Part shown: positions 2,087 through 45,859 of the stretch, piece by piece | Numbering within the stretch: the first letter of the stretch is position 1 | Layout: every line of letters starts with the position of its first letter | Source: an uncultured Candidatus Peribacteria bacterium | GTDB taxonomy: Bacteria > Patescibacteriota > Gracilibacteria > BD1-5 > UBA2023 | Assembly: GCA_964540725.1 (NCBI GenBank) | Contig: CAZINU010000004.1 | Coordinates: forward strand, 12,233-76,232 | Length of the DNA stretch: 64,000 nucleotides | Reading direction: 5' to 3' | The notes under the pieces: model-generated | What the model was told of the DNA's origin: nothing | What the model saw: only the letters and a program-made list of their open reading frames with translations | Databases searched by the model: none | Program-made: the position numbers and the translations under genes

Positions 2087-2186
2087 TCGGTCGGACTTTG
2101 TCCGAACAAACAGCCCGCCGTTTTTCCGTCTCGCGTTCTCGGAAAAAACGGATATACTCCGCCAACTTCCGTTCCAAATTTTCGAA

Positions 2187-3659: not shown

Positions 3660-3754
3660 CGAACCGCCCCAGGTTGCCGATTTCGGGAAAGGATTCCGGC
3701 GAATCCGGTCCGAACTTGTCCCGAACGGTGCCGTCCGGAGTTCCCTTGGGATAC

Positions 3755-3786
3755 GAAAAAACTTCCGGTCTTCCGGAAGTTTTTTC
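3755..3786. terminator. Bidirectional intrinsic terminator between convergent genes
   Basis: aaaaaacttccgg-tctt-ccggaagtttttt: a perfect stem flanked by an A-run and a T-run. Confidence 0.6.
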
Positions 3787-3837
3787 GTCGGGGCGCGTCC
3801 GTGATTCGCCGGCGCGGATACGGATCCGGCCAAAAGG

Positions 3838-4912: not shown

Positions 4913-4924
4913 GATTCGGATTGG

Positions 4925-6016
4925 ATGAGAGAGGTATTAGATACTTTAATAAGTACCAAATTGAAATTGTCAATAAAAAACGTCCGAATTTCGCGCGAAA
5001 CGGCCGCTCCGGCCGCCTTCCTTCTGACCGCCCTCTTTGCCGTTTGGTGGCTTTCCGGCGCTGCCGACGCGTTCTCGAGCCTCTTCGCGTTTTTGGCGTA
5101 TTCGGCATTATTCTTTCTGCTTCGAGCCGCGTACGGCGCCGCGTTCTCCAGGGGGATCCCGAGTTTCCGGGAATTCTTCCCCTCGTTCGTCCGCGTTACC
5201 GGTCGGGGATTCGCGCTCGTATTCGCCGCCATCGCGACGTTCGCCGTCTACGAAAACGAAATCGCGCCCGCGGAGCTTCCCGCCTACGTGCTGTCGAACG
5301 GCGAAAAGACCGTCGTGTTCCGCCCCATGGCCCATATCGCGTCCCCGCGGTACTACGCCGAGGTCAAGCGCGAACTTTCCGAGGCCCGTAACGGGGGGTA
5401 TGCGCTGTTCTACGAAGGCGTCCGCCCCGGAACGCCCGAAAACACCGCCCGGTTCAACGCGCTCCTCGGCCTCGAATTTTCCAAGGAACTCTATCCCGCC
5501 ATGTCCAAACTCTACGGACTCGTTCCGCAGGACACCCGCGCCATCGTGGGCGAGTTCGCGGAGGGCGACGTCAACGCCGACGTTTCCATCGACGACATCA
5601 TCGCCGCTTACGACCGGAAGTTCGGTTCCGGAGCCTCCGATTCGAAGCCGAAGTCCGAATCTCCCTCCGGCATCCGCGACGTCGCGAAGGATTTCTCGGA
5701 ATACGCAGATTCGCTCTCTTCCCGCGAACTCGCCCTCATTCGCTACGTCAACCGCGGCATCATGTCGTTCGTCATCAAGAACCGCGGCGCGGCCGACGCG
5801 GTTGCCGAAGGTGCCGGGAATGCCGACCTTTTTTCAGTCATTCTCCACGACCGCAACGAAGTCATCGCCCGCGAAATCCTCAGCTCCGACCGTTCTAAAA
5901 TCTACGCCACCTACGGCCTCCTCCACTTCGACGGCGTCTTCGATTTGTTACAGGAGGCCGATCCGAAGTGGAAGGTGACGATTTCCGATCGGAAGCTGTA
6001 CCCCACCGTTCCATAA
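4925..6016 (+). CDS. Membrane protein, weak TraB/GumN-like resemblance; start uncertain
   Basis: 363-aa ORF with N-terminal hydrophobic helices and a TAA stop. The family call is weak. Confidence 0.5.
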
Positions 6017-6121
6017 CGCCCGATTCCGCCCGAATCGCCGCCCCGCCGACCGAAATGCCCGGCCCCGCCGCTTGCGTTTCCCGGAAAAACCGCTACCATC
6101 CCGTATCCCTTTTCCGTTCCC

Positions 6122-8077
6122 ATGAAGAAAAAACCCGATTCCAAGAAACCGTCCGAATCCCGAGTCAAAAGCCCTCTTGGCGGCATGGGCGTCCGTCCTC
6201 CGAAGATCCGCCGTCCGAACCCGCTCGTTGGGCTCTTTTTGGTCGCGCTTGGCGTTTCCGTGGCGTATTCGTTTTTCGCGTCGCCCGTCCGGGAGGACGT
6301 GAACGACAAGGCCGCCCTCTCCGAAGTCGTTGCCAAATACCATTCGGGCACGTACGAGGAGGTCGTCGTCCAAGGGGCCACGCTCCTTGCCAGGAAGCCC
6401 GCGAAGGAGAGCGTCGTCGGCGATCGGGTCGTGAAAACGGTCGAGGTCGACAAGGTGCTCCTGCCTCCGAACGACGGCCTGACCGATCTCGGGTTCAACG
6501 ACCGTTCGGTCGCGACCAAGGTGACCGTAAAAGAAGATTTTTGGAGCGGTACGATGGGCGAACTCATTCCCACGCTCGTCGCGGCGGTCATCTTCCTCGT
6601 GCTCGCCGTCGTCATTTTTTCGAAATTTTCGCAAGGGGGCGCCAACCCCATGGCCTTCATCAAGTCGCGGGCCCGCGTGTACGACCCCAAGGCGAAGGAC
6701 AAGGTCACGTTCGCCGACGTCGCCGGTTCCGAAGAAGAGAAGGAAGACCTTTCGGAAGTCGTCGATTTCTTGAAGAATCCGAAGAAGTACAAGGATTTGG
6801 GCGCGAAGATTCCCCGTGGCATCCTTATGGCCGGTCCTCCGGGAACGGGAAAAACCCTCCTCGCCCGCGCGGTCGCCGGAGAAGCCGCCGTTCCGTTCTT
6901 TTCGATTTCGGGTTCCGAATTCGTCGAAATGTTCGTCGGCGTGGGCGCCGCCCGCGTGCGCGACTTGTTCCGCGAAGCGAAGGAAAAGGCCCCGTCGATC
7001 ATCTTCATCGACGAAATCGACGCTATCGGCAAGCGCCGCTCTCCCGGAATCGGGGGCGGGCACGACGAGCGCGAGCAGACCCTCAACCAGATTCTGACCG
7101 AAATGGACGGGTTCGACAACGACACGAGCGTCATCGTGCTGGCGGCCACCAACCGGGCCGACGTGCTTGACAAGGCGCTCTTGCGCCCCGGACGCTTCGA
7201 CCGGAAGGTCGTCATCAATCTGCCGAACCTCGAAGACCGCGTGAAGATCCTCGAAGTCCACGCCAAGGGCAAGCCCCTCGACCGCGACGTCGACCTCAAG
7301 CGCGTCGCCTCGAGCACCGTCGGATTCTCGGGCGCCGATTTGGGCAACCTTCTGAACGAAGCCGCCATCCTCGCCGGAAAGCGCTCGTCGAAGACCGTCA
7401 CGGCCGAAATGATTCAGAAGTCCATCGAAAAGGTCGTCATGGGCAATACGAAAAAGTCGCTCCGCATGACCGAATTGGAAAAGAAAATCACCGCCTACCA
7501 CGAAGTCGGGCACGCCATCGTCGGAAAAATGCTGCCCAACGTCGACCCCGTCCACAAGATTTCGATTATCCCGCGCGGAAGCGCCGGCGGCGTTACGTGG
7601 TTTTTGCCCGAGAAAGACCGCACCTACGTCTCGAAAGCCAAGTACTTGGACGAACTCGCCCGCAACTACGGCGGCCGCGCGGCCGAAGAGGTGTTCTTCG
7701 GCGCCGACAACGTCACTACCGGCGCGTCTTCCGATATCGAGCACGCGACCGAAGTGGCCCGCGCCATGGTCATGCGTTACGGATTCGACGAGGAACTCGG
7801 TCCCGAAAACTTCGCTGCGGAACAGGTGGCGGGCAATTACCTCGGCGCCGAAGGTTCCGGGAAGATCGTCTCGGAACGCACGCAGGAAAAGATTGACGAA
7901 AAGGTCCGCGAAATCCTCAAGGGCGCCTATGTCCGCGCTCGCGACATCATTCTGGCGAACCGCGACCTCCACGAAAAGATCGCGATCGACCTTTTGGAAA
8001 AAGAAGAAATGCTCCGCGAGGAATTCGACGCCTACTTCGAAGGCGTCGCAGGGGTTCCGGAGAAGGCGGTGGGGTAG
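6122..8077 (+). CDS. ftsH: ATP-dependent zinc metalloprotease FtsH
   Basis: Walker [12 protein letters not shown]+ second region of homology, zinc motif [11 protein letters not shown] stop. Confidence 0.95.
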
Positions 8078-8101
8078 GGGCCGAAGGCTCCGCCCTTGGC
8101 G

Positions 8102-8356
8102 CTAGAAGTCTTGATGGTCGGAAACTTTGTACACCGAAAATACCGTTCCTTCGAAAAATCCGAACGCGCGGTATTTTTGATTGATCCGAAATTGGTAGAT
8201 TTCGGCCGCTTTCGGCCTTCGGAGTTTGAAATCGAATTTCTGGGGATTTCCTCACATCATCAATCGTTTCGCCTTTACGTACTGCTCGGTAAGTTGGCGC
8301 GATTCAAGATAGCGAACCACGGTATCGGATTCGCGAATTTGGGTAATTTTCCGCAT
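8102..8356 (-). CDS. Putative RelE/ParE-superfamily toxin (type II TA)
   Basis: 84 codons once TGA 8252-8254 is read as Gly. The C-terminal half EIYQFRINQKYRAFGFFEGTVFSVYKVSDHQ resembles the RelE/ParE core. Lies 4 nt downstream of a small ORF. TAG stop at 8102-8104. Confidence 0.5.
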
Positions 8357-8360
8357 GCCC

Positions 8361-8525
8361 CTAGAGATTTTTCCAAGAATTCGCCGGAGCTTTTTTCGCC
8401 GCTTCCAACTCCTCTTCGAGTTCGGTTTCGAGGCGGTACTGCAAAAGAACGCGGACGAGTTCGTCCATGTCGCGGAAATGCGTTTGGGGAAGCCGCACGG
8501 GACGGTCAATCGTAAGGGTGGTCAT
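8361..8525 (-). CDS. Putative antitoxin
   Basis: 54-aa acidic ORF (MTTLTIDRPVRLPQTHF...) immediately upstream of the toxin-like ORF. TAG stop. No motif recognised. Confidence 0.4.
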   Translation of the reverse strand: MTTLTIDRPVRLPQTHFRDMDELVRVLLQYRLETELEEELEAAKKAPANSWKNL

Positions 8526-8805
8526 ATGCGTGGCGATAAAAATGGATTGATGCGATGATATCCAAGGAAAATGCATGACAAAAGAAATTTTCCGGAAAAA
8601 CTTCGAAAAAAGCGTTTTTCGCAAAAATCTTCCGACGATATCCGGCACCTCGGATACGCAAATATACGCGAACGTAAATGTCCATATCTAGACGTTTGGC
8701 ACTTTTTGCATGCTCGCTCATAAAGTAAAAATCCCTTCGCAAAGCCACGTATGGAAACAATCTTAAAAATTTCTGAAAAACGCCCTCCAATTTTCGGCGA
8801 ATTCT

Positions 8806-8834
8806 TTGACAGGGGGAAAAAGAGAAACTACGAT
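8806..8834 (+). promoter_or_regulatory. Sigma70-like promoter candidate
   Basis: TTGACA (8806-8811), 17-nt spacer, TACGAT (8829-8834), about 30 nt upstream of the ATG at 8865, inside an AT-rich gap. Confidence 0.4.
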
Positions 8835-8864
8835 GGGCGGAATTATTCGTTTTCCCCGTCGCCC

Positions 8865-9608
8865 ATGCCGAGACTTTTCCGTATCTCCCCAATTGTTCCG
8901 GTTTTGCTCGTCACGGCGTTCGCCGCGTCGTGCTCGGTGCGGTCGCCGTTTTCGACCGACCGAAGCTCCGACGACCGCTCCTCCGCCGCCTCGCGGCGTT
9001 CGGCCGAATCGGTCGTGGCCGAAGAATCGCCCGAGTTCCTCGAAGGCGCCCGAAAGGTCGACTACGCCCCCACGTTCTCGGGGTTCGCGCTTGCGCCGTT
9101 CGAAACGGGCTCCTCCGCCACGTTCTCGGGCGGCGTTTTAATGGTTGGAAAATCGTCGTTCACCGGTTCGCTCGTCCGGCTCCAGGGCGTTGAAATCGGC
9201 CCGGACGGCAAGGGCGGATGGACGTGCCGAAGCGAAGCGTCTTTCGTGCCGCCGGAATCCCAAAGCGGCGCGAGCGCCGTTGCCGTTCCTTTAAAAACCG
9301 CCCCCGCGATCTTCGTTCCCGGCTTTTCGAAAATGCGGCTGCTCGGAAAAACCTACGCCTACGCGCCCGAAAATCTTTCCGCCTACGGCAACGTCTTCGA
9401 TATCGACGCGTTCGTTACGGCCGACGGTACGGCGTACGTATTGGAATTCGAGAACGCCAAAGAGAAGGCTTCCAGAAAAGAAACGCTGGACGAATACGAA
9501 CGGAAGGTGCGCGAAGTGAAGGAACGGTATCCGGCCGACCCGGCAGTTGCCAACCGCCTGATCGACGCGCTGAACGATGCGTACGGAATCGACGCCACGA
9601 AGTTTTAA
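8865..9608 (+). CDS. Hypothetical lipoprotein
   Basis: MPRLFRISPIVPVLLVTAFAAS-C lipobox. TAA stop. Confidence 0.6.
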   Translation: MPRLFRISPIVPVLLVTAFAASCSVRSPFSTDRSSDDRSSAASRRSAESVVAEESPEFLEGARKVDYAPTFSGFALAPFETGSSATFSGGVLMVGKSSFTGSLVRLQGVEIGPDGKGGWTCRSEASFVPPESQSGASAVAVPLKTAPAIFVPGFSKMRLLGKTYAYAPENLSAYGNVFDIDAFVTADGTAYVLEFENAKEKASRKETLDEYERKVREVKERYPADPAVANRLIDALNDAYGIDATKF

Positions 9609-9632
9609 ACCGGTTTCCTAACCCCTTTTCCC

Positions 9633-10835
9633 ATGAAACGTTTCGCGCTCTCCGCGATTGTCGGACTCGTCGCCTTCTCGGTTCCGGCCGCATTCGCCGC
9701 GCCGAGCATGGAAGACTACACCTACGTCGACTGCCATAACGGCCAAGACTCCACGGCCGTTCCCTTCGACCATACCAAGCCGTACAGCACGCTCAAGGCG
9801 GCTATCGAGGGCAGCATCAACCATATCAACGCGAATTGGAACATTCCCGCCAACGCCCAAGCGGTGCTTTCGAAGCGGTTCGTCATCAAGGCGAAAGCGC
9901 TCTGCGTGTTCGACGGGTACGGGGCGAACGGAATCCGGCTGAATTTTTGAAACGGAAACGTGTATCACAATGATCTTTTCATTACTTCCGACGATACCGC
10001 AAAACCGTTCTGAATCCGTGGATACTATTTTTACGATTCCCAGATTGACGGGTACGCGAATCCTCGTTGAATAACCTTTGACTCGACGTATTTCATGGGA
10101 AGTTCCGCGGCGGCCGGAAATTCGTATTTCCGAATAAATTCGAACGGAATCGGCATTTCGAATAGCGTCATTACGATGGGGTCATCGCCCATGTTCCAAC
10201 AGCAGACTTGGAAATACCCCTACTGCAACGTTTCTTGGTGCGCGTACGCCCCGAATCCCGCGAATGCGAAAATCTCCAACTCCCTCATCCGCATTACCGG
10301 AAACCAGAATGCCGACACGAACTTCCTCATGCCGGGTTCCATCGAGAATTCGAAAATCGAGTTTACCGTTCCGAACGGGGCGAACGGAAAACTCATTCTG
10401 AATGCCGACGGAAGCAATTTCCTCAACCTCATCAAATCCACCCGCTTCGACCTGGGAGGCAAGAACGTCCACGTGAACGTCGACGTCGTAAACAGCCAAT
10501 TCACGAACTTCGGCACCTTTACGGCCGCCGGAGGTTGGAACGTCTTCACGAACAACACCGTGCTCCAAATGCCCGGGCTCCTTACGGTGAACAATTGGTA
10601 CTACGCGTACAACAACGTCTTCGCGCCGTACGGGATTGCCGATTCGTCCGACCCGAACAACGAGCGGCGGAACCTCCAGACGCCCGCGCAGACCGGCGGC
10701 GTTGGGTGGAGGTACCGCAAGGCCCTCGGCACCTACCTCGAGCAGAATTTCACCGACGCCACCCTCCGCAACGAAGCCGCGCCCGGAAGCGCTTCCGGCG
10801 AAACGTTCACGCCGACGTACCCGATCTTCCAATAG
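9633..10835 (+). CDS. Secreted protein with beta-helix-like repeats
   Basis: ORFs 9633..9950 and 10095..10835 are in one frame, joined through TGA at 9948, 10011 and 10068. Signal peptide MKRFALSAIVGLVAFSVPAAFA. Recurring xNSxI motifs (ISNSVIT, ISNSLIR, IENSKIE). TAG stop. Confidence 0.65.
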
Positions 10836-10855
10836 TAATCCTTACCGTTTTCCCC

Positions 10856-13800
10856 GTGCTTCCGACTCGGATTTTTCGACCGACGAAAGCCTTTCTGGCC
10901 GCCTTCTTGGCGATGGGATTCCTTTCGGTGAGCGTCGTTTCCGCCAACCCGGCGGTGTGAGGCCGCGCAGCTTGGAACGAATGGGACGGAAGCAGCCGTT
11001 CGGTCGTGCTGGATATCGACGCCCAGAAACGGACGGATTTGTCACTCCCTCCGGATTCGTACGTCGTTGCTATTTTCCGTGACGAAGGCATCGTGTACCA
11101 ACGGTGGGATGCCGGAACGTCCATGTCCGTATGCATATACAGGGATTCGGCTACGGGCGCCGAACGGACGCTTTTTTCGGACGGATGGCTGTCGTCGTTC
11201 GATCCCGAAACCGGAAACTACACGTATTCCGTATGGGGCGACGGCATGAGTCGCACGTACCGCGCAAACGTTGAAACGGACGTCGCGCCCACTCTCGTGC
11301 TCGCGGAGCCGAATGCATGAATCCAACAGTATTCCTCCGATCTCTCCCATGCGCTTATAAATCGGTACGATCCATTGACTGGATCGAACTCCATATATCT
11401 CAGGAACCTCGCTACCGGCTCGGAACGGCTCCTCGGTCCCTCGTATTCCGATTCGCCCGAATACTATTGGAACGCTTTCTTCGCCTTCTTCGGCGGATCG
11501 AACGACACCGTTGTCCGCATCGCTCGGGAATATCGAAAAAGCGACTGGACGCTCTCAGCACACTCGGGCGCCATTCTCGACGCGACGGATCCTTCGGCCA
11601 TTTCCGAGAGTCCGGCACCCATGAATTTCGGCCCCTACGGGTACTATGTCGGGTATAAGGGGAATCGGCATTTCTATGTCGTTTATGACGAAAATTGGAA
11701 CTCTTCCACCCATACCTATTCTGACGGCACCGACTCGGTCGTATTGGATGTGGGGAAATACCTCATGTCCGATTGACAAACCGGCCGTATGCCATGATAC
11801 GGCGATATTGTCGCCTACTCGTACTGGGATTCCGCATCGTCGAAAAACGTCGTGGAATGGATGAACGTCGCCACTTCGGCTACGGGTTCGATCGTTGACG
11901 GATGGGTGGACTCCAAAGCCCTCTCCCTCCGCCCTTGGAAAGACCCGTACGACCCCCTCGTCTTCTCGAACCCCATCGGGTGGTATTCGCCGCAGGCGTC
12001 GAATCCGGACGGAACGGCGTTCGAAAACGTCGCGTATTCGGGCGTGCTCGGAACCGCTCTCGCGGCCGAATCGATTCCCTCGTGGACGGGCGGCGTATTC
12101 GAATCGGGTGCCGGCCCCATGGGCGCGTACGCCACCATGGCCGCGGTTCCCGAATGGGCCGCTACGGCGTTCTCGTTCGAGGGTGGCAGCATCGGCTCGT
12201 ACGGATTCCGGGCCGAGTGGCTTCCGGCGTTCGCCTCCGAGGGATTCGCGTCCGCCGGTACGCTCGTAGGATCGTTTGGGATTCCTTCGGCATCGTGGCC
12301 GGAGTTCGGCTCCGGAACGTTCCTCGCGGAAGTTTCGGCCCCGGTGGGAAGCTTTGGCGCGCCGCTTTCGAGCGTTCCCCACTGGTCGGAATACCAATTC
12401 TCCCGCCTCGCCTCCCAAACCCCCGCCTCCGCCGCGCCGTTCTCCGGCACCGGCGGCGAATCCGTCCTCGCCGCCCGCGACGGCAACGGCGACGTCCTCG
12501 CCGAGGCCCAGGCGCCGGACAAGGACCTCATGGACCCCGTCGACCCCGCCACCGGCGACTTCCTGTACGAAAACGCCTTCCTCCGGCTCGCCGGAGGCCG
12601 CGAACCCTTCGAATTCTCGCTCTCGTACCGCTCCTCCGCCGGGTACGACGGCGCCTCCGGCCATGACTGGATCCACCCGTTCGAGCGCAAAATCCTCCCC
12701 GCCGCCGACGGTTCCGCCAAATACTCCGACGGCGAGGGCGGAACCTGGACCTTCGCCGCCTCCGGCACCGGGTACGCCCGGTCGGAAGCGCTGAAGGCCG
12801 GGCTCTCCCGCACCGGCTCCGGCGGGTGGCTCCTCTCGATGCGGAACGGCCGGACGGAAACGTTCGACCCCGACGGCCTCCTCGAAACCGTCGCCGACCC
12901 CGACGGCGTCCTCTTCTCGCTTTCGCGCGACCGGTACGGCAACCTCGCCTCCGTCGCGGATTCCCTGGGGCGCGTCGTCCGCTTCGAGAACGGCCAGGAC
13001 GGCCGCGTCGCGAAGGTTTCCGACCCCCTCGGCCGCGAAGTCCGGCTCTCGTACGCCTCGCAAACCGGCGCGGCGGCGACGCCCGGCGACCTCGTCTCGG
13101 TCTCCCTGTGGTACGGCACGGGCGCCGAAAAAACCGTCTCCTTCGGGTACGGCACGGGCGCGCACGACCTCCACAAGATCGTTTCGCTCACCGATTCCAA
13201 GGGGCAGGAATACGTAACCAACGGGTACGGCGCCGACGGCCGCGTCGCCTGGCAGCGGTACGGAGAAGGCACGGGGTTCTACTCGTACGTCCTTTGAAGC
13301 GTCCACGAAGACGATACGCCCGAATCCGCCGGCACCGGCCCCGTCGTCGGCGCGTACGTGGAAAAAACCGTCGTCACCGACCGCCGCGGCAACGTGACCG
13401 AATACGCGTATTCCCGCGCCGGCGCCCCGCTTTCGCGCACCGAACTCGGGTACGGCTCCGGAACCCTCGCCACGTCGTGGGCGTACGGCGCCGACGGCCG
13501 CGTCGCCTCGGAAACCCGGCCCGACGGAAGTTCGACCCTGTATTCGTACGACCGAGACGGCAACGTCTCCGAAGAGCGCCTCCGTTCGTCCGACCCCGCC
13601 GACGCCGACGTCGTCGTCCGGTACGGATGGGATTCCGAAGGCCGCCTCGCGGAAAAAACCGCCCCCGACGGTTCCCGGACGCTCTACTCGTACGACGCTT
13701 CCGGCCGCCCGACGTCGGTGGTCGCGGCCGCCGTCCGCCTCTCCGCGACCGGTTCCGCCGACCTCGGAACTTCCTTTTCGTACTCCGGCGGCTACCTCTC

Positions 13801-16800
13801 CGCGAAAACCCTCCCGGACGGCTCGCGGACGGAGTATTCGTACTCCGGCGGACTGCTCGCGGAAGTTACGGATTCCCTCGGAACCCTCCGCTACGCGTAC
13901 GACGCCGCCGGCAACCCGACGGCGGTCACGGACGCGGAAGGGAACGTTACCCGCTCCGAATTCGACGCCTTCGGCCGCGTCGTGAAAACCGTTTCCCCGG
14001 AAGGCCTCGAAACCCGCTACTCGTACGACGCCAACGACAACCGGATACGGACCGAACGCTCCGCCGGCCCCGGAAAAACGGCCGCGACCCGCGCGGCGTT
14101 CGGCCTGCTCGACGAAGTCCTGTCGGAGGAATCCGACCTTTCGGAAACCCTCACGGGCGCCCTCGAGACGCGGTACGACGCCAACGGGGAAGTCGCCGAA
14201 CGCCTCCTCCCGTCCGGCGTCCGCGAGAAGTTCCTCCGCGACCCCGCCGGCCGCGTCACCGAACGCCGCCTCGTCCCCGCCGACGCCTCGGAAGACGCCG
14301 TCGCCCGGTACTCGTATTCCGGCGGCCTCCTGGCGGAAGAAACCGACCCCCTCGGCCGGAAAACGGAATACCGGTACGACGGCTTCGGCCGGCTTTCTGC
14401 GGAAATCTCGCCCCTCGGCACCGAAACCCGGTACTCGTACGGGCCCTCCGGCAAACCCGTCCGCACCGACGTCCTCGACGCTTCCGGCGCCCTCGTCGCC
14501 CGATCGGAATCCGAATACGGTTCCGGCGGCCTCCTCCTCGTCGTCCGGTCCGCGGCGGTGGAAAACGGCGCCCCGGCCGGGGGAGCCCTCGAAACCCGTT
14601 ATTCGTACGGCCCCCTCGGAAGGAAAACGGAAGAAACCGCCCCGGGAGGGGGCAAGACCCGCTACGCGTACTCCGGAAGCCTCCTCGCTTCCGTCACGGA
14701 CGCGACGTGAAACCGCGCGGAATACCGGTACGACAAACGCGGCCTCGTTACCGAAACCCTTACCGTCTGAACCGACGGCACGGTCCTCGCCACCCGCCAC
14801 GCGTACGACCGCGACGGCCGCAAGACGGAGGAAACCGCCCCGGACGGCGGAATTACCCGGTACGGATACGGCCCCCTCGGCGACCTCGCCTCCGTCACCG
14901 GCCCCGAAGGAAACCGCACCGAATTCCTCCGCGACTTCCGCGGCCTCGCCACGGCCGAAACCGACGCCCTGGGCGGAACCGTTTCCGCCGGGTACCGCGC
15001 GGACGGCAACCGCGTTTCCCTCTCGGACGCGGAAGGAAAAACGACTGCGTACGCCTTCGACGGCTTCGGAAGGGAAAAAACCGAAACCCTCCCGGACGGC
15101 TCGGAGTACCGAACCCGGTACGACCTCGCGGGCAACGCCGTGGAAACCGAGGACCCGGCCGGCAACCGCGTGACCCTGGAATACGACGCGGAAAACCGCC
15201 TCGTCCGCAGAACCGCCCGAACCGCTTCCGGAACCGTCGGACCCGCGTGGGAAAGTTTCTCGTACGGCCCGCTCGGCGAACTGCTCGAAGCGCGGGATTC
15301 GGACGGCAACGCCGTGGCGTTCTCGTACGACGGGTTCGGAAGGAAGGAGGCTGAAACCCAAAACGGGAAAACCGTCTCGTACGCGTACGGAAACGACGGG
15401 CGGATTTCCTCCGAAACCCTCCCGTCCGGAAGGGTCCTGGATTACGCCCGGGACGCCCTCGGGCGCCCGACGGGCATGGCGGAAGGTTCCGGCCAATCCG
15501 CCCGGACCCTCGCCCAATACCAGTATTCCGGCCCCTTCCCGTCCGGAACCCTCCTCGGCAACGGGACGGCCGAATCGCGCCTGTACCAAAACGGAAGGCC
15601 CGCCGCCCTCGCGCTCTCCGTGCCCGGAAGCCAGGCCCCCCTCCGCGCGTACTCGTACGCGTACGACCGGAATTCCAACCCCCTCTCCGACGGGGAGGGC
15701 GGGTACGCGTACGACGCCCTCTCCCGCCTCTCGTCCGCCGGATACGGGACGGAATCGGAATCCTTCGCGTACGACCGCGCGGGCAACCGGACCGTCCGGA
15801 CGTCCACGGGAACGGAAACCGGAACCGCGGACTACGCGCGGAACCCGCTCGACCAGTACCCGGAAATCGCCCGAACCCTCTCCGGAGGAACCCAGACCGG
15901 CTCGTACCGCTTCGACCCCAACGGAAACCTCGTCGAAACCGACCGGCTCGTCCTCGAGTACGACTGGCATAGCCGCCTGAGGAAGGTTACGGAGAAGGAA
16001 TGGACCGAAACGGGAAGCCTCGGGCCGCGAATCCCGGAGGCGTATTTCCTGGGATCGGAGACGGGGAGCGGTTCGGAAACGGGCACGGGAACCGGCACCG
16101 GAAGCGGCGCCGAACCCCCGCCGGATTCCGGCAGCGGCAGCGGCACGGGAACCGGGGAAACTTCGACCGGGACGGTCCTTCCCCCCGATACCGGAACGTG
16201 AGCCGGAACGTGAACGTGAACGGAAACCGGGTCGGGCTCCGAAACTTGAACGTGAACGGCGGAAACCGGGACGTGAGCCTGAACCGGAAGCGGGGCGGAG
16301 ATCCCGCCGGAAACGGGCGCCGGTACGCAATCCAGCACCTGAACCGGAACGGGCGGAACCTCGTCCGGGACCGGGGAAACCTCGTCGGGAAGCTTTTCCG
16401 GCACCGGAACCTTCTCCATCTTCCACCCCGCCCGAATCCTCGCCGAATACGCGTACGACCCGCTCGGCCGCAGGATTTCCAAAACCACCGAGAATGCCGT
16501 CACCAAATGGCGCTACTCCGGTGAAAAAATCGTCCAAGAGACGGTCGAGACCCCCGTCGGACAACTCCTCCGTACCTCCGAATTCGCGTACGGCCCCGAC
16601 GGGGACGACGTCGTCGCCGAGTTCCGTACGGAGAACGGGAATCCCGAGGAAACCCGCTACTTCCTCAAGGACCGCCTCTGAAGTACCGTCGCGGTCACCG
16701 ACGGCTCCGGAAGCGTGCTCGAAGAATACCGCTACGACCCCTTCGGCAAGACGTACCGGAAAACCGCGGAAGGAACGTGGGAAGCCCTGAAGCCCGGACG

Positions 16801-17554
16801 GCAGACCGCCACCGACCGGCTCTACACCGGCCGCGAACGCGATCCCGAAACCGGCCTCTACCATTACCGCGCCCGGACGTACTCCCCGGAACTTTGAAGG
16901 TTCCTGCAGAGGGATCCGGTAGGCACCGCGGACCAATTGAACCGGTACGCGTACGTGGGGAACAACCCGATGGTGGCGACGGACCCGAGCGGGATGGTCA
17001 TCAAGCAGATGGTCAGGGGCGGCGTCGAAGGCGACTTCGTCGAGAATCCCACCGTATGGAACGACGTCGGCAACGCCGCCGTCGGGTTCGTCCCGGTCGC
17101 CGGCAACGCCGCCGGAATCCGCGATTCGGCCGCCGGGCTTTCCCGCTGCGAATGATTCGGGGACTGCGCCCTCGCCGCCGGCGACACGGCCCTCAACCTC
17201 GTCCCCGGGAAGAAGGGGGCGCAGGGGGTTTGGAAGTTGGGCCGAAGGGCATCACCCATCGTAAAGGAACAAATCCATCATTTCCTTACGAATAAAAGTA
17301 AAAGATTTACTCCCGAATTTGTAAAAATCGTATCAAAATACGATTTAAAATTAGATGAATCTTGGAATAAAGGGGCAATGGAGCATTTATGACGACACGT
17401 CGAGGATTATCACACCATGATGCTTTATCAGGTTAGGCGCATAGACGCCGTTGCTCGAGGATCTCAAAAAATATTCTTAAAAGAATTTGAGGCAATCAAG
17501 AAAAGCGTTATGGATAATCCAGATATACTTTATAAGAAGGGATGGTGACGCTAG
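10856..17554 (+). CDS. RHS/YD-repeat polymorphic toxin (WapA-like, Sec signal peptide)
   Basis: A single frame runs from 10856 to TAG 17552-17554 with no TAA/TAG and 20 in-frame TGA. Putative GTG start gives the signal peptide LPTRIFRPTKAFLAAFLAMGFLSVSVVSA. Many YD repeats (xxGxxxxYxYDxxGR). Core end is YFLKDRL-G-STVAVTDGSG...YHYRARTYSPEL-G-RFLQRDP...NRYAYVGNNPMVATDPSGM. The start codon is uncertain. Confidence 0.85.
16052..16412 (+). repeat. (Thr/Ser-Gly)n low-complexity linker inside the RHS gene, UGA-dense
   Basis: Translates as ETGSGSETGTGTGTGSG...TGTGAGTGTGTETGSGSETGTGT.... Eight Gly codons in 16199-16342 are TGA, partly as acgtga hexamer repeats. Confidence 0.8.
16646..17080 (+). repeat. 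Direct repeat copy 1 (RHS core end)
   Basis: 435 bp colinear with 18183-18617 (offset 1537, no indels seen, roughly 85-90% identity by eye). Confidence 0.85.
17081..17554 (+). other. Variable C-terminal tip of the RHS protein: PT-TG-like segment followed by an xHH-type HNH/EndoVII-like nuclease candidate
   Basis: VGFVPVAGNAAGIRDSAAG resembles the pre-toxin TG module. After it comes ...IHHFLTNK...SWNKGAMEHL-G-RHVEDYH (HH...N...H..H). GC drops sharply from about 17256. Confidence 0.5.
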
Positions 17555-17585
17555 CCTATTATACTTGTAATGCATAACTGACATC

Positions 17586-18170
17586 ATGACGTTCTTTTCT
17601 TTTGTACAAATGGATCCTCCTAAAAATTCGGGAGCGATGCTCCCGAAGGATCATAAAGTCTTCCAAGATTTTTGATGGGGCGAATACGATCTTGTTTGCG
17701 GAAAAAAGATTGAAAACTGGAATGATAGAAATGTTGCATTTTTTGAGCGAGATGGAGAAAAATCTAATTTATCTGAAGATTATTTGGGTACCACGTTACC
17801 TTGTCCTGTGATTTCTCGAAAATTTAAGGAATTACTCGAGAGGGAAAGAATTGAAAACATTCAATTCTTTCCAATTCGTATCGAAAATTTTAATAACCCT
17901 TCCGATATTTTCGAAGCCGAATATTTCATCGTGAATATCCTTGACGTTGTCGTCGGTGCTATTGACAAAAAAAAATCTATTTCTGACTGAATCGGGTGAT
18001 TTTTGAAAAAAACCCTTATTGAAAAAAAAATCAGCGGACACGATTGGTTTAGATTGTTCGAAGACCCTTTTCAGGACATTATTTCCGAACGAATAAAAAG
18101 ACTGTTCGAAGATAACTGTTCAGCATACGTTAAATTCTCTCGTATTATGGTCGTGGAACATTGAGATTAA
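17586..18170 (+). CDS. Imm11 (DUF1629)-like immunity protein
   Basis: 194 codons in one frame with TGA at 17673, 17988, 17997 and 18162, TAA stop. Motifs PVISRKFKELLERERIENIQFFPIRIEN...EYFIVNILD and ...WFRLFEDPFQDIISERIKRLFED match the Imm11 pattern as I recall it. Low GC. Starts 31 nt after the toxin stop. Confidence 0.7.
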
Positions 18171-18182
18171 TTTTAGATCCTT

Positions 18183-18617
18183 GAAGAAACCCGCTACTTC
18201 CTCAAGGACCGCCTATGAAGCGTCGTCGCCGTGACTGACGGAACCGGGAACGTCGTCGAAGAGTACCGCTACGACCCCCTCGGCAAGACGTACCGGAAAA
18301 CCGCGGAAGGGGCGTGGGAAGTTCTCAAACCGGGACAACGAGCCGCCACCGACCGGCTCTACACGGGAAGGGAACGCGACGCGGAGACGGGACTCTACCA
18401 TTACCGCGCCCGGACGTATTCCCCGGAACTCGGAAGGTTCCTGCAACGCGACCCAATAGGCACCGCGGACCAGATTAACCGGTACGCGTACGTCGGGAAC
18501 AACCCGATGGTGGCGACGGATCCGAGCGGGATGGTTATCAAACAGATGGTCAGGGGCGGCGTCGAAGGCGACTTCGTCGAGAACCCCGCCGTATGGAACG
18601 ACGTCGGCAACGCCGCC
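18183..18617 (+). repeat. Direct repeat copy 2 (RHS core end)
   Basis: Colinear with 16646-17080. Confidence 0.85.
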
Positions 18618-18660
18618 ATGACGGAAGGGAACGGTCCGTCCTTGAAGGACATCGCCCACA

Positions 18661-18693
18661 AAACCCCCTCCGAATCGGTTCGGAGGGGGTTTT
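18661..18693. terminator. Bidirectional intrinsic terminator
   Basis: aaaccccctccgaa-tcgg-ttcggagggggttt perfect hairpin between the orphan fragment and the convergent gene. Confidence 0.6.
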
Positions 18694-18704
18694 CAATATT
18701 CTTT

Positions 18705-19436
18705 CTACATCTTCATCCACCCGTTCGCAACGGCCATGATGCCGTTCAAAACTAAGAGGATGCCGAGCGCTTTGAAAAGTTCCTTGTCGTTCATTCGATG
18801 ATGGACGACGTTTCCGACCTTCAACCCCAGCAGTAACCCCGTGAATCCGGCCAATGCTTGAAGCAGTATGCCGGGAACGACGATGCCAGCGAGCAGGAAA
18901 GTGATCATCCGGATGTTTCCCTGGATCATGAAGATGAGGGAGAGCGTTCCGCGAATCTGGCTCTTATTCAGTTCCCGATTCGACAAGTAGATGACGTACG
19001 GGGGTCCGCCGGTTCCGAAAGCGCCGCTGATGGCCCCGCCGGCGAATCCGGCGACCGGAGCCCATTTCGGGCTGAGGGTCTTGACGACCTTCCAACCGAG
19101 AACGTGCTGCAATCCGAAGGCGGCGATGACGACGCCCACCATGATGAGCAATGCGGATTGCGGCAGTTTCACGAGGAGGAAAATGCCGATGGGCAAGCCG
19201 AGCAAACTTCCGAGAATCAGGGACTTGAATTCCGGCCAGACGATATCCGTTTTTCCTATCCGACTGAGGATGATATTGGCCAGTGCTTCCAGCAGGAGCA
19301 TGAGAATGACGACCTGGTGGAAGGGGAGGTAAATGGCCAACAATGGGGTAGCTATGAGCGAAGAACCGAATCCGGTCGCGGCCCGAATGAAGAAACAGAC
19401 GAACGCGATGAGTCCGGTAGCGAGTAATTGTTCCAT
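18705..19436 (-). CDS. TauE/SafE (DUF81) family anion exporter
   Basis: 243-aa polytopic membrane protein with a duplicated GxGGG-type pattern (RAATGFGSS..., GAFGTGGPP). TAG stop. Confidence 0.8.
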   Translation of the reverse strand: MEQLLATGLIAFVCFFIRAATGFGSSLIATPLLAIYLPFHQVVILMLLLEALANIILSRIGKTDIVWPEFKSLILGSLLGLPIGIFLLVKLPQSALLIMVGVVIAAFGLQHVLGWKVVKTLSPKWAPVAGFAGGAISGAFGTGGPPYVIYLSNRELNKSQIRGTLSLIFMIQGNIRMITFLLAGIVVPGILLQALAGFTGLLLGLKVGNVVHHRMNDKELFKALGILLVLNGIMAVANGWMKM

Positions 19437-19799
19437 ACGCCATTAGCAGCCACTCACCTCCCAAGCGTCATTCGCTGGGAGCGTCTCGGTGACGAATCTT
19501 GCGACTCGCTCCCTGAGCCTTTCGTTTCCTCTCGGTCTTTCGTCCGCCGACGTCGGTCTTCCGAGGGCTTCCGGTTTTCTTCCGCTCGGATCCGGGAGAT
19601 GTCTCGGAAACTGTCCTTCGTATGTCGTCATATCGTGTGCGTCCATACTCTGAAAAAGGAAAAAAATAAATGCATTTAACAAATGCATACGTAGTATAAA
19701 CCAAATGGCAATAAGAATCCAAACGTTTTGTTTTTTCTTCTGTTTTTCCGTTTTTTTCTTCCCGTTGGAACGTATCGTCCCGGGCGTAACCCCGTGATT

Positions 19800-21938
19800 A
19801 TGCGCCTCTTCGGCTTTTCCTCGCTCCCGAACGTTCGCCTTCCCGTCGCGGCGTCCGTTCTCGCGGCGTCCGCCATGCCCGCTTCCGCGGCGTTTTTCTT
19901 TTCCGAAGCGCTGCCGAACACGGCCGACGACGCGCTCCTCGAATACGTAGTCGTCGCTTCCGATTCGTGCGTGCCCGAAAGCCTTTCCGGATACGCGCTT
20001 TCCGACGCCTCCGGAAAATCGTTCACGTTCGGCCCCGGCGACGCGTTCGTTTCGACCGGAACCTTGAAAATTGGCCGGAACGTCACGAAAATCACGCTCA
20101 ATAACGAGAACGAATCGCTCTTCCTTCGAAACCCGGCATGAATCCTCGTCGATACGTTTTCGTACGCTACGAGCGTGAAAGGGGCGCCGATTTTCCGGGT
20201 TCCCGAAATTCCGTATCCGGCGTGCTTTCCGACGGAAAGCTTTGGCGTACCGGAAAATTCCGGCCAGTCGGACGGTTCGGAAGATTCGCCGACGCCGGAC
20301 GAAACGCTGTCCGAACCGGAGGTCGTGCCCGAAGAAGGCGCGTCCGTTCCCGGGGAAGGGGGAGCCGAAGAATCGGCCGATTCTTCCAGCAGTACCGATT
20401 CCGATGGGACCGGCGAATCCGAAGCGTCGGAAGATCCGGAATCCGAAACGGGGGCGACCGTGCCGGATTCTTCGGAGACCGACCCCGGAACGCCCGCTCT
20501 TCTATCTTCCGCTCCCTCCGAAGACCCTCTCGGATCTTTCGAGAATTCGACCGGGAGCGTTTCGCCGGAGGCGTTGTCGTGAGCGTCGTACGCCGAAGGG
20601 GAGTCGCTCTCCGCCGTACCTTCCCTCCGGACCGAAGGCGTTTCGGATATCCGGGCGACTCCCGAATTCCTTGCCGTCGTCGATTCCGATAGCGACGGAC
20701 GGTTCGATCGGTTGGACATAGCGTATTCCGAATCCGTCACGGGAACCGTAACCCTCTCGGGCATCTTTCTTTTTTCGGCGACCGGCGGACTCTTCGAATC
20801 CAAGGTCGCGACCGCGACCGGGTTTTTCCGGTCGGCGTCGGCGTCCGGTTCGGTGCTCTCCCTTTCGCTCTCGGGCCCGACGCTCGCGAAACCGTCGCTT
20901 CGCGTCGATGCGTCCACGTCGAGCGAACTCCGGCTGAAATCCACTGCCGACTTCTGACTCCGAACGCTTGCCTCCGGCCTTCCGGTCGCCCCCTTCGCGC
21001 TGACGACCTCGTTCGATGCGTATTCGAAAGACCGGGTATCGTTCGTTCCGCCGCCCCCGCCGCCCCCGGCAAGGGTGGAATACGTGGCCGTTCCGTCCGG
21101 CACTTCCTCGACAATCCCTTCCGTCACCTCGTCGGAACCGGCGTCCGCAAACATTTCGAAGGCGTCGAAGCCCCCGAAGGCGTCGAAAACGGCCGCGCTC
21201 GGCAAGGCGAAAGTTCCGGCGAAAAATTCGGCAAAAGCCCCGTCGGTCGGCGGCCCGAAACCCCCGAAACCCGCGCCGACGGAAAAATCGGCCGCCCCAC
21301 CCAAGGTGGCGGAAGGCGTCGCCGTCGTTCCTTCCCAGGGCGTCGACCTTCTTCCGGACGGCACGTACCGCTACGAGTGCTTCTCGAAAACGTCGTGCCC
21401 GGTTTCGCTGAAAGTCGAAAACGCCCCGAAGGGCGGATACTGGCAGTTCTCCGACGGGCGCAAGCGTTTCGGCAATTCGACCGGAACCCTCGGGAAAGGC
21501 TTCGCCACCTACCGGCTCCGCTACGTGGCGCCCTCTTCCGGGCGGGATACGGAAATCCCCGTCCTTCTCTCGGTCGTTCCGGCAGCGGAAGCGACTGCGG
21601 AAAACGTCTCTTCCCAAGCGAAGGCGGTTTCGAAGGCCCTTGCGGCATCCAAGAGTTCCGCCACGTCGTCCGGGACGAAAAAGACGTCCTCCGGTACGGC
21701 GTCGAAAACGTCGAAACTTCCGTCGTCCGAATCCAAGGAACTCTCGGGCTCGGGCGCCTGAGCGGCGGTCGGTTCGAAAAAGTCGCCGACCCTCCGTCCG
21801 CCCGGGGTCGAACCGTCCCGCGATTCGTTCGCGCTCGCCCTTATCGCGGTTTCGCTCGTTTCCCTCGGGCTTCTCGCCGGCGGATGGATCGGTTCGAGAC
21901 TCTTTCCGATTCCGGGCGAGCCGGTCGAGCGCGCCTAA
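19800..21938 (+). CDS. Lamin-tail-domain (LTD) surface protein with an acidic low-complexity region and a C-terminal TM anchor
   Basis: Four ORF fragments in one frame, joined by TGA at 20139, 20580, 20955 and 21759. Signal peptide, then the LTD pattern FSEALPNTADDALLEYVVV...LSGYALSD...LNNENESLFLRNPA-G-ILVDTFSY. C-terminal FALALIAVSLVSLGLLAGGWIG. TAA stop. Confidence 0.75.
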
Positions 21939-45799: not shown

Positions 45800-45814
45800 T
45801 TTTTTTGACATTCT

Positions 45815-45847: not shown

Positions 45848-45859
45848 CTTTCCTCCCAT

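What the first reader, a model, noticed from the sequence alone, without database searches (positions are those of the whole stretch)
17256..18180. Sharp low-GC island covers exactly the toxin tip and immunity gene
By direct count, 17101-17160 has 42 G+C of 60, whereas 17281-17340 has 15 of 60. The low-GC stretch begins inside the RHS ORF, just before the ...IHHFLTNK... nuclease-like segment. It runs through the Imm11-like gene and ends at about 18180, where the high-GC orphan repeat starts. This is the signature of a horizontally acquired toxin/immunity cassette grafted onto a resident RHS shell. The island still uses TGA as Gly (17390, 17546, 17673, 17988, 17997, 18162), so the donor presumably shared code 25 or the cassette has since adapted.
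Basis: seen in the sequence. Interest (0 to 1): 0.75.

Follow-up and report, generated by a model that had tools for sequence, protein, structure and literature searches.

The report
Foreign nuclease-immunity cassette on RHS toxin
A 925-base AT-rich patch at the end of a giant bacterial RHS toxin gene is an ordinary swapped-in DNA-cutting toxin domain plus its antidote gene; its codon habits suggest it came from another, AT-rich bacterium that also reads the stop codon TGA as glycine.

Summary
Positions 17258-18182 are 35% G+C against 59.5% for the window. This is the window's lowest 925-bp stretch (z about -5) and its strongest tetranucleotide outlier. An independent assembly spans both junctions.

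The island holds the AHH (HNH/EndoVII) nuclease domain at the end of a 2232-aa, signal-peptide-bearing RHS protein, then an Imm11 immunity gene. A 436-bp orphan copy of the RHS core end follows. This is the classic RHS C-terminal-displacement pattern, here in a 60%-GC Gracilibacteria-lineage genome where TGA means glycine.

Refinements:
- The GC break is not at the RHS cleavage motif. It lies 87 codons later, at the start of the AHH domain. The linker between has host composition.
- Codon usage is foreign: GC3 is 0.34 against about 0.75 in host genes. TGA supplies 6 of 17 Gly codons against 13 of 685 in host genes.
- The nearest relatives of toxin and immunity (43-53% identical) lie in low-GC, TGA-recoded genomes and share TGA at homologous Gly codons. 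A code-25 donor is therefore favoured over later adaptation.
- The closest relative found for comparison lacks the whole RHS locus at the syntenic site.

Verdict: a known kind of system in a new lineage. Interest is modest.

The parts
10856..17554 (+). RHS polymorphic toxin gene. It encodes 2232 aa under code 25, with 20 in-frame TGA and a TAG stop at 17552-17554. The GTG start at 10856 is inferred; it yields a Sec-type signal peptide (MLPTRIFRPTKAFLAAFLAMGFLSVSVVSA).
   Evidence: The stop-to-stop frame 10166-17554 is open for TAA and TAG. Candidate starts are listed. Pfam finds RHS_repeat at E 2.5e-93 in 10 stretches, DUF6531 at E 1e-13, and AHH.
16733..16996 (+). RHS repeat-associated core domain. 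It ends in the ...GRFLQRDP...ATDPSGM motif, the expected self-cleavage site.
   Evidence: NCBIfam TIGR03696 scores 92.2 bits against a cut-off of 32.5 and covers the full model 1-76. The motif was read.
16646..17081 (+). Direct repeat copy A: the core end plus the first 28 codons of the C-terminal region.
   Evidence: It is 86.9% identical to 18183-18618 over 436 nt without gaps. Of 57 differences, 38 are at third codon positions.
16997..17257 (+). Linker or pre-toxin segment of the cleaved C-terminal region, with host-like composition (17081-17254 has GC 0.71 and GC3 0.84).
   Evidence: Composition is. The segment is collinear with the linker of a low-GC code-25 AHH toxin in L021 (40% identity over 194 aa including the AHH domain, E 2e-44). 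It has no Pfam match.
17258..17554 (+). AHH (HNH/EndoVII-fold) nuclease domain, low GC (0.36, GC3 0.35), with TGA-Gly at 17390 and 17546.
   Evidence: PF14412 at E 2.9e-7. All 12 aligned relatives hit PF14412. HH, N, H, H and Y are conserved. Homology to L002 and L003 starts at QIHHFLTNK.
17586..18170 (+). Imm11 immunity gene of 194 aa, low GC (0.36, GC3 0.34), with TGA-Gly at 17673, 17988, 17997 and 18162.
   Evidence: PF07791 at E 5e-10 covering model positions 38-188 of 194. Relatives sit directly after AHH tips in L002, L019, L020, L021 and L023.
17258..18182 (.). The low-GC island itself (925 bp, about 35% G+C).
   Evidence: An independent contig, L026, spans it.
18183..18618 (+). Orphan copy A' of the RHS core end. 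It is in frame and keeps Rhs_assc_core and DPSGM. It stops being homologous after ...VWNDVGNAA, and no toxin or immunity gene follows.
   Evidence: TIGR03696 scores 90.5 bits. Where the main copy has TGA in PEL-G-RF, this copy has GGA.
18660..18693 (.). Hairpin with a 15-bp stem flanked by A-run and T-run. It looks like a bidirectional terminator that closes the RHS locus against the convergent TauE-family gene (18705-19436, minus strand).
   Evidence: TauE is assigned as PF01925.
8078..19700 (.). Variable block holding two small ORFs, the RHS gene, Imm11, the orphan and TauE. It is absent between FtsH and the LTD-domain gene in the closest relative I fetched.
   Evidence: In L018, FtsH ends at 11941 and the LTD gene starts at 12095. 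tblastx synteny pairs L018 10073-11935 with window 6209-8071, and L018 12131-12529 with window 19827-20225.

Best explanation
This is an RHS polymorphic toxin locus whose warhead was swapped in from a compositionally foreign source.

How it works (inferred from family knowledge). The 2232-aa protein is exported through Sec. Its YD-repeat shell encloses the C-terminal region, which is cut off after DPSGM. That region carries an AHH-type HNH/EndoVII DNase that kills a neighbouring cell. The Imm11 protein encoded 31 nt downstream protects the producer.

History. The AHH domain plus Imm11 (17258-18182) was acquired horizontally from a low-GC member of the TGA=Gly (code 25) Gracilibacteria/Absconditabacteria radiation. 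It was joined, in frame, to a resident high-GC linker exactly at the N-terminal edge of the AHH domain. The diverged direct repeat of the core end (A at 16646-17081, A' at 18183-18618) is the footprint of C-terminal displacement as modelled by Jackson et al. 2009. In that model an incoming core-end/tip/immunity unit recombines into the resident core and pushes the old core end downstream. Here the old tip has since been lost.

Shown: the composition break, the domain identities, the foreign codon usage, the repeat, the code, and the relatives. Inferred: direction and order of the transfer events, secretion, cleavage, DNase activity and immunity.
For: Composition.
- The break is sharp and is the extreme of the window.
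- With host codon usage the island's proteins would be about 50% GC, but 36% is observed. Roughly half of the drop is therefore codon choice and not amino-acid content.
- GC3 is 0.34 in the island, against 0.84 in the adjacent linker, 0.79 in the shell and 0.65-0.80 in 20 host genes.

TGA usage.
- TGA supplies 6 of 17 Gly codons in the island and 13 of 685 in host genes (Fisher p 1.7e-6).
- Low-GC code-25 loci use TGA heavily: 53/237 in the L003 shell, 24/32 in L019 and 101/166 in L021.

Relatives.
- The closest AHH found in 185,579 species genomes is 53% identical. It sits in L003, a 37%-GC genome whose RHS ORF carries 67 in-frame TGA.
- The two closest non-self Imm11 among 1.84 billion representatives (46% and 43%) both lie directly after AHH tips in TGA-recoded contigs of 24% and 30% GC.
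- TGA sits at homologous Gly columns. HL-G-RH is TGA in the window and L003, and Gly there is nearly invariant in the family. DF-G-WG is TGA in the window and L019. SD-G-IG is TGA in the window, L019 and L021, and GGN in standard-code L023.

Mosaic structure.
- The window's linker is homologous only to L021's, while its AHH is closer to L003's, whose linker is unrelated.
- Homology to foreign AHH domains starts 13 nt after the change point.

Repeat.
- A and A' are 86.9% identical, with differences mostly at third codon positions. Two functional alleles evidently diverged, rather than one copy decaying.

Other support.
- An independent assembly spans both junctions.
- The host is a Gracilibacteria-lineage organism (FtsH hits). 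TGA=Gly is confirmed by reciprocal TGA/GGN at conserved Gly positions against L018.
- Literature: core/tip GC signatures and the displacement model (PMC2935791); the Tox-AHH/Imm11 pairing (PMC3482391); AHH-Imm11 pairs tested in Myxococcus xanthus (PMC12077181).
Against: - No donor was found. The best relatives are only 43-53% identical, so timing and source are inferred from composition alone.
- AHH tips are lower in GC than their shells in nearly every homologous locus where both could be measured, whatever the host. Part of the AT-richness is therefore a property of the family and not a sign of recent arrival.
- The displacement model predicts an old tip and immunity gene behind A'. None is present, so a later deletion must be assumed.
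- Nothing about secretion, cleavage, DNase activity or immunity was tested.
Confidence: 0.8

Rival explanations
1. The AT-richness is intrinsic and maintained, not a trace of recent transfer. On this view the AHH/Imm11 family is AT-rich everywhere because of its Lys/Asn/Ile/Phe/Glu-rich composition, or because selection favours low or silenced expression of a dangerous gene. The cassette could then be an old resident.
For: In nearly every homologous locus where both could be measured, the tip has lower GC than the upstream shell. Examples are L004 (0.28 against 0.51) and L007 (0.32 against 0.45). Amino-acid composition alone brings the expected GC down to about 0.50.
Against: Codon choice accounts for the remaining 14 points. 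GC3 of 0.34 sits directly beside a linker with GC3 of 0.84 in the same reading frame. TGA-Gly usage is about 18 times the host rate, and selection on expression does not predict that. The break coincides with a change in evolutionary affinity, linker to L021 and AHH to L003.
Confidence: 0.1
2. The cassette came from a standard-code low-GC bacterium such as a Firmicute (compare Clostridium L002, 49% identical). It acquired its six TGA-Gly codons after arrival.
For: The AHH subfamily is found mostly in standard-code genomes (13 of the 16 loci). The Clostridium tip is nearly as similar (49%) as the code-25 one (53%).
Against: The host uses TGA for only 1.9% of Gly codons and is GC-biased, so six GGN-to-TGA changes among 17 Gly codons are very unlikely. 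Three of the six TGA positions coincide with TGA in other code-25 cassettes. The two nearest Imm11 relatives in an exhaustive search are both from TGA-recoded contigs.
Confidence: 0.07
3. Assembly chimera: reads from a low-GC organism were wrongly joined into a high-GC contig at the repeated RHS core end.
For: The island is flanked by a 436-bp repeat, and short-read contigs break there: L001 and L026 end at 18554 and 17017.
Against: A second assembly of run SRR5011273 (Logan) crosses both junctions at 100% identity. The RHS frame runs through the left junction without a stop. The product is collinear end to end with an L021 protein. The left junction lies 176 nt beyond the end of the repeat, in unique sequence.
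Confidence: 0.02

Closest known systems
Enterobacterial Rhs loci with C-terminal displacement (Jackson et al. 2009, PMC2935791; orphan use shown by Koskiniemi et al. 2014, as cited in 10.64898/2026.07.13.738213)
   Same: A GC-rich YD-repeat core ending in the DPxG motif. A tip and immunity gene with a distinct low-GC signature. A dissociated core fragment lying in direct orientation downstream.
   Different: The compositional break lies 87 codons inside the C-terminal region rather than at the core/tip border. The orphan has no tip. There is no PAAR, VgrG or T6SS context. The host is a Gracilibacteria-lineage organism that reads TGA as Gly.
Tox-AHH / Imm11 toxin-immunity pairs (Zhang et al. 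2012, PMC3482391; tested in Myxococcus xanthus, see PMC12077181)
   Same: Both Pfam models are passed. The immunity gene lies immediately downstream. The toxin is fused to RHS repeats. The HH...N...H...H...Y residues are present.
   Different: The residue before HH is Ile, not Ala or Gly. The closest relatives are only about 45-53% identical. Candidate phyla were not in the phyletic range listed in 2012. Six sense TGA codons make the pair untranslatable under the standard code.
Bacillus subtilis WapA-type Sec-exported YD-repeat toxins (from my own knowledge; not tested here)
   Same: An N-terminal signal peptide in place of a T6SS adaptor. A large YD-repeat protein with a C-terminal nuclease and a downstream immunity gene.
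   Different: No cell-wall-binding repeats were detected. The N-terminal 530 aa have no family match apart from DUF6531.
Polymorphic toxin arrays in low-GC code-25 genomes
   Same: The same AHH subfamily. The same Imm11 in L019 and L021. The same linker and the same GWGR C-terminus in L021. TGA at homologous Gly codons.
   Different: Those loci are uniformly AT-rich (24-37% GC) and use TGA for 22-75% of Gly codons. The window's copy sits in a 60%-GC genome and has intermediate values (GC3 0.34, TGA 35%).

Membership tests
RHS / YD-repeat polymorphic toxin | Multiple RHS/YD repeats forming the shell | tested here: met
   PF05593 at E 2.5e-93 in 10 stretches; DUF6531 at E 1e-13; TIGR01643.
RHS / YD-repeat polymorphic toxin | RHS repeat-associated core domain ending in the DPxG[LM] motif, with the upstream GRFxxxDP | tested here: met
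   TIGR03696 scores 92.2 bits against a cut-off of 32.5 and covers the full model. The sequence reads ...PELGRFLQRDP...ATDPSGM.
RHS / YD-repeat polymorphic toxin | Variable C-terminal toxin domain after the core, followed by a cognate immunity gene | tested here: met
   An AHH domain and an Imm11 gene 31 nt downstream.
RHS / YD-repeat polymorphic toxin | Autoproteolytic release and encapsulation of the toxin | not testable with these tools
   Only the sequence motifs are present.
C-terminal displacement footprint (Jackson 2009) | Dissociated core fragment in direct orientation downstream of the intact gene | tested here: met
   A' at 18183-18618 is 86.9% identical to 16646-17081.
C-terminal displacement footprint (Jackson 2009) | Dissociated fragment still carries the displaced old tip and immunity gene | tested here: not met
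   Homology ends at VGNAA. A terminator-like hairpin follows 41 nt later, and then the convergent TauE gene.
Tox-AHH (PF14412) | Score above Pfam's gathering threshold | tested here: met
   30.9 bits (tip alone) and 32.7 bits against 22.3. All 12 aligned relatives also match.
Tox-AHH (PF14412) | Signature [AG]HH...N...H...H...Y (PMC3482391) | tested here: met
   In the 12-sequence alignment, the second H of HH, N43, H49, H53 and Y57 are invariant, and the first H is nearly invariant. The position before HH is Ile in the window and varies (I/N/E/D/L/H) in this subfamily, so it is not A or G.
Tox-AHH (PF14412) | Metal-dependent DNase activity and the beta-beta-alpha-Me fold | not testable with these tools
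   No solved structure is detectable by sequence.
Imm11 (PF07791) | Score above the gathering threshold over most of the model | tested here: met
   39.4 bits against 22.1, covering model positions 38-188 of 194.
Imm11 (PF07791) | Located immediately downstream of an AHH, HNH or SHH toxin | tested here: met
   True in the window and in L002, L019, L020, L021 and L023.
Imm11 (PF07791) | Binds and neutralises its cognate toxin | not testable with these tools
   Requires an experiment.
Genetic code 25 (TGA = Gly) | In-frame TGA at conserved Gly positions in conserved genes | tested here: met
   The main copy has PEL-TGA-RF where the orphan has GGA. The GRH Gly of AHH is TGA. Window and L018 show reciprocal TGA/GGN, including the Der P-loop and the GalU GxGTRF motif.
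Genetic code 25 (TGA = Gly) | tRNA-Gly(UCA) present and release factor 2 absent | not tested
   The window holds only tRNA-Arg(CCT). The rest of the genome is not available.

The most novel reading that the evidence does not exclude
The AHH/Imm11 cassette belongs to a pool of toxin-immunity modules that circulates only among TGA=Gly bacteria (Gracilibacteria/Absconditabacteria). Sense TGA codons lie in or just before conserved parts of both genes. One example is the Gly of the nearly invariant G-R-H, upstream of H53 in the AHH signature. These codons act as a genetic-code lock, because standard-code bacteria that pick up the cassette would make truncated, harmless products. The window would then record a jump across a GC gap of about 25 points inside that closed pool. 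The share of Gly codons that are TGA would be a new, code-specific tracer of donor and residence time.
Probability: 0.4. Interest if true: 0.55.

Novelty: new member of a known kind. Interest (0 to 1): 0.35.

Why it matters
The pattern of an RHS tip plus immunity cassette with foreign composition has been textbook since the E. coli and Serratia work, so the main result is confirmation. Three things are added.

First, polymorphic RHS toxins with AHH/Imm11 warheads and orphan footprints exist in the Gracilibacteria lineage. These are uncultivated, probably episymbiotic or predatory bacteria, in which such weapons are barely described. A full-text search for 'polymorphic toxin' together with 'Gracilibacteria' returned two copies of a single paper, on an unrelated bacterium (Ornithobacterium hominis).

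Second, in a recoded genome the fraction of Gly codons written as TGA is an independent fingerprint of the donor. It separates 'came from another code-25 organism' from 'adapted later'.

Third, both public gene calls for this contig are wrong for the cassette. One collection cuts the genes at TGA (code 11). Another puts Trp where Gly belongs (code 4). Toxin and immunity surveys will therefore miss or misread such loci.

Tried and rejected
- A word-indexed search with the AHH tip found nothing.
- A search with the core end plus linker found only the window's own code-11 fragments and one distant Paraburkholderia RHS. No sister allele is available for comparing alternative tips.
- Look-up of the flanking TauE protein and of the code-4 Imm11 protein returned only short Logan contigs from SRR5011273. 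No paper mentions that run.
No PDB relative is detectable by sequence.
- Rfam found only the tRNA.
- The promoter scan was no better than shuffled sequence.
- I considered and rejected PT-TG or PT-VENN identity for the linker, because there is no Pfam hit at E up to 1.
- I rejected an assembly chimera.
- I considered TGA=Trp (code 4), in case the low-GC contigs were Mollicutes. I rejected it because their TGA codons fall on family-conserved Gly: GRF in the L021 RHS core, G-LKL and G-RH in AHH.
- My first host codon table had one gene in the wrong frame. It was corrected and the conclusion did not change.
Full report
**1. The observation**

Positions 17101-17160 have 42 G+C of 60, 17281-17340 have 15 of 60, and 17256-18180 is 35.5% G+C in a window that averages 59.5%. 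Among all 925-bp windows the mean is 0.595 and the sd 0.046. The minimum, 0.354, starts at 17251, about 5 sd below the mean. A two-change-point likelihood fit over 16000-19500 places the island at 17258-18189, with 35.2% inside and 61.9% outside. The same stretch is the strongest tetranucleotide outlier of the window.

The break is not an artefact of one assembly. Logan contig L026, from run SRR5011273, equals window 17017-18309 at 100% identity and crosses both junctions.

**2. Anatomy**

With only TAA and TAG as stops, one frame is open from 10166 to 17554 and contains 20 in-frame TGA. The most plausible start is GTG at 10856. It gives a 2232-aa protein with a Sec-type signal peptide (inferred).

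The domains along this protein are:
- RHS repeats at E 2.5e-93 in ten stretches, and DUF6531.
- The RHS repeat-associated core domain, TIGR03696, at 92 bits. It ends at ...ATDPSGM, nucleotide 16996.
- An AHH nuclease domain at the C-terminus, PF14412, 30.9 bits against a cut-off of 22.3.

The next ORF, 17586-18170, begins 31 nt after the TAG stop. It matches Imm11 (PF07791) at 39.4 bits against 22.1, over model positions 38-188 of 194.

A 436-nt direct repeat of the core end follows from 18183. Copy A' (18183-18618) is 86.9% identical to copy A (16646-17081), without gaps. Of the 57 differences, 38 fall at third codon positions. A' still matches TIGR03696. After ...VWNDVGNAA the homology ends. 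A 15-bp-stem hairpin that looks like a bidirectional terminator (18660-18693) follows 41 nt later, and then the convergent TauE-family gene. The orphan is therefore a bare core end. It has no toxin or immunity gene behind it.

**3. Where exactly the break falls**

The left change point (17257/17258) is not the core/tip border at 16996/16997. It lies 87 codons further on.
- The intervening linker has GC 0.71 and GC3 0.84, which is fully host-like.
- Homology of the window's tip to AHH tips from other genomes begins at QIHHFLTNK, 13 nt after the change point.
- The right edge is the 12 nt between the Imm11 stop (18170) and the first base of A' (18183).

The island is thus exactly the AHH domain plus Imm11. 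The whole cleaved C-terminal region is longer than the island.

**4. Is the low GC just amino-acid content?**

Only partly. If the island's proteins were written with the codon preferences of host genes they would be about 50% G+C, but 36% is observed. GC3 is 0.34 in the island against 0.65-0.80 in 20 host genes and 0.79 in the RHS shell. Mean synonymous-codon log-probability under host usage is -1.49 for the island. Correctly framed host genes score about -0.9, the least host-like of them -1.12. The codon usage is foreign.

**5. The genetic code and the host**

Several lines show that TGA means Gly here:
- The main copy reads PEL-TGA-RF where the orphan reads PEL-GGA-RF, in the canonical GRF motif.
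- TGA at 17390 is the Gly of a G-R-H motif that is nearly invariant in the AHH subfamily.
- Against the syntenic genes of L018, TGA and GGN replace each other at conserved Gly positions. These include the Der P-loop and the GalU GxGTRF motif.

FtsH places the host in the Gracilibacteria lineage. Named top hits are Candidatus Gracilibacteria, 'uncultured bacterium (gcode 4)', Altimarinota and Patescibacteria. The best non-self hit is 79% identical.

The host uses TGA sparingly, for 13 of 685 Gly codons (1.9%) in 20 genes. In the island, 6 of 17 Gly codons are TGA (Fisher p 1.7e-6).

**6. Relatives of the cassette**

For the toxin:
- A scan of one genome per species found two relatives of the AHH tip. 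One is an orphan module in a Clostridium RHS array (L002, 49%, standard code). The other is the tip of an RHS protein in L003 (53%). L003 is a 37%-GC MAG whose 3168-codon RHS frame holds 67 in-frame TGA.
- A metagenome scan added 14 loci at 37-54% identity, almost all standard-code and of low to moderate GC.

For the immunity gene:
- An exhaustive HMMER search of 1.84 billion representatives with the TGA-free core of Imm11 gave only 62 hits.
- The best was the window's own protein translated with code 4.
- The next two (46% and 43%) both lie directly behind AHH tips in TGA-recoded contigs of 24% GC (L019, L020) and 30% GC (L021).
- These contigs are code 25 and not code 4. Their TGA codons fall on the GRF Gly of an RHS core and on the conserved G-LKL and G-RH glycines of AHH.
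- In them TGA is the main Gly codon (24/32 and 101/166). In the L003 shell it is 53/237.

Three of the window's six TGA positions coincide with TGA in these cassettes:
- HL-G-RH, shared with L003.
- DF-G-WG, shared with L019.
- SD-G-IG, shared with L019 and L021, where standard-code L023 has GGN.

The island's values (GC3 0.34, TGA 35%) resemble those of an L003-like genome (shell GC3 0.33, TGA 22%). No amelioration needs to be assumed.

**7. Mosaic structure**

An L021 protein is collinear with the window's whole post-cleavage region. The match covers linker plus AHH at 40% identity over 194 aa (E 2e-44), down to the same GWGR C-terminus. Yet the window's AHH domain is closer to L003's (53% against 42% for L021), and L003's linker is unrelated. 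Linker and AHH therefore have different affinities, and the switch falls where the composition switches. This is what a recombination junction at the domain edge predicts.

**8. History, inferred**

The A/A' repeat has mostly synonymous divergence. It looks like two functional alleles of the core end brought together, as in the C-terminal displacement model of Jackson et al. (PMC2935791). In that model a circle carrying a core fragment, tip and immunity gene recombines into the resident core and shunts the old end downstream.

That step needs high DNA identity, so the immediate source was probably a related high-GC RHS that already carried the low-GC AHH/Imm11. The low-to-high GC joint at 17257/17258 must stem from a separate, non-homologous event. 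The order of the two events cannot be resolved. The old tip behind A' must have been deleted.

The locus as a whole is variable. In L018 (53% GC, FtsH 79% identical, also TGA=Gly) FtsH is followed after 154 bp by the LTD-domain gene. The window has 11.6 kb between them, holding two small ORFs, the RHS gene, Imm11, the orphan and TauE.

**9. Mechanism, inferred from family knowledge**

The protein would be exported by Sec. The YD-repeat cocoon would enclose the C-terminal region, which would be released by self-cleavage after DPSGM. The AHH HNH/EndoVII DNase would attack the DNA of a target cell, and Imm11 would protect the producer.

Tox-AHH with RHS repeats and Imm11 partners was catalogued by Zhang et al. 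(PMC3482391). AHH-Imm11 pairs have been tested in Myxococcus xanthus (PMC12077181). The signature residues HH, N, H, H and Y are present and conserved. The residue before HH is Ile rather than Ala or Gly. No PAAR, VgrG or T6SS element is present, so delivery would resemble Sec-exported WapA-type toxins (my own knowledge, untested).

**10. Rivals**

- Intrinsic AT-richness of the family is real. Tips are below shells in nearly every locus where both could be measured. It does not explain the GC3 step inside one reading frame, the TGA excess, or the switch of affinity.
- A standard-code donor with later adaptation would need six GGN-to-TGA changes in a GC-rich host that avoids TGA.
- A chimeric assembly is excluded by L026 and by in-frame collinearity with L021.

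**11. Verdict**

This is a known kind of system (RHS tip displacement with an AHH/Imm11 cassette) in a new lineage and a recoded genome. The TGA-share argument and the shared TGA columns give a modestly new angle, a possible code-restricted cassette pool, but the donor has not been found.

Noticed in passing
whole window; L018: The host is a Gracilibacteria-lineage genome at 59.5% G+C that reads TGA as Gly but uses it for only about 2% of Gly codons. The closest relative I fetched, L018, is 53% G+C and does the same. Code 25 is usually discussed with low-GC genomes (28.9% in PMC6851277). GC values embedded in the NCBI Gracilibacteria strain names mostly read 37-38%, with one at 48%.
   Followed up: partly
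window 8078-19700 versus L018 11941-12095: The whole RHS locus, with two small upstream ORFs and the TauE gene, is missing between FtsH and the LTD-domain gene in the syntenic region of the relative. No integrase or flanking tRNA was seen. The left part of the block (8100-8700, 9800-10000) is also low in GC (0.40-0.49).
   Followed up: partly
window about 16050-16415: A Gly/Thr/Ser/Glu low-complexity insert (GSETGSGSETGTGTGTGSG...) sits inside the RHS shell just before the core domain. Eight of the gene's 20 TGA codons cluster here in ACG-TGA (Thr-Gly) repeats. This is unusual for an RHS cocoon and is not explained.
   Followed up: no
L003 (CAZZNY010000005.1), 773-10279: A MAG labelled 'Candidatus Peribacteria' in its record is clearly TGA-recoded: 67 in-frame TGA in one RHS frame, some at conserved Gly. 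As far as I recall (not checked here), Peregrinibacteria are regarded as standard-code, so the label or that assumption may be wrong.
   Followed up: partly
L003 10310-10687; L002 10999-11409: A second small immunity-like family (126-136 aa, no Pfam hit, 34% identical between the two loci) accompanies this AHH subfamily. It replaces Imm11 in L003 and sits after Imm11 in the Clostridium array. The same toxin subfamily thus pairs with two unrelated immunity families.
   Followed up: partly
window 17586-18170 and 16895-17153; proteins P0001, P0002, P0124: Public gene calls for this contig disagree, and both are wrong for the cassette. One collection cuts the genes at TGA (fragments of 72 and 174 aa). 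Another translates with code 4, so Imm11 carries Trp at four positions where Gly is meant.
   Followed up: yes
window 17036-17081 and 18573-18618; L021 1291-2025: A conserved (F/Y)(V/I)ENPTxWN motif lies just before the point where the main and orphan copies diverge. It is also present in the L021 linker. By position it recalls the VENN boundary of CdiA toxins, but no Pfam pre-toxin family matches.
   Followed up: partly
window 45800-47821 (+): An ORF with a type IV pilin-like N-terminus (FTLVELIVVITILAILA) and a long Ala/Ser/Gly-rich tail contains five in-frame TGA. This was seen only in the translation and was not scanned against any family library.
   Followed up: no
window 18660-18693: A perfect 15-bp-stem hairpin flanked by A-run and T-run lies between the orphan core end and the convergent TauE gene. 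It is probably a bidirectional terminator, and it lies inside the nominal orphan ORF (18177-18755).
   Followed up: no
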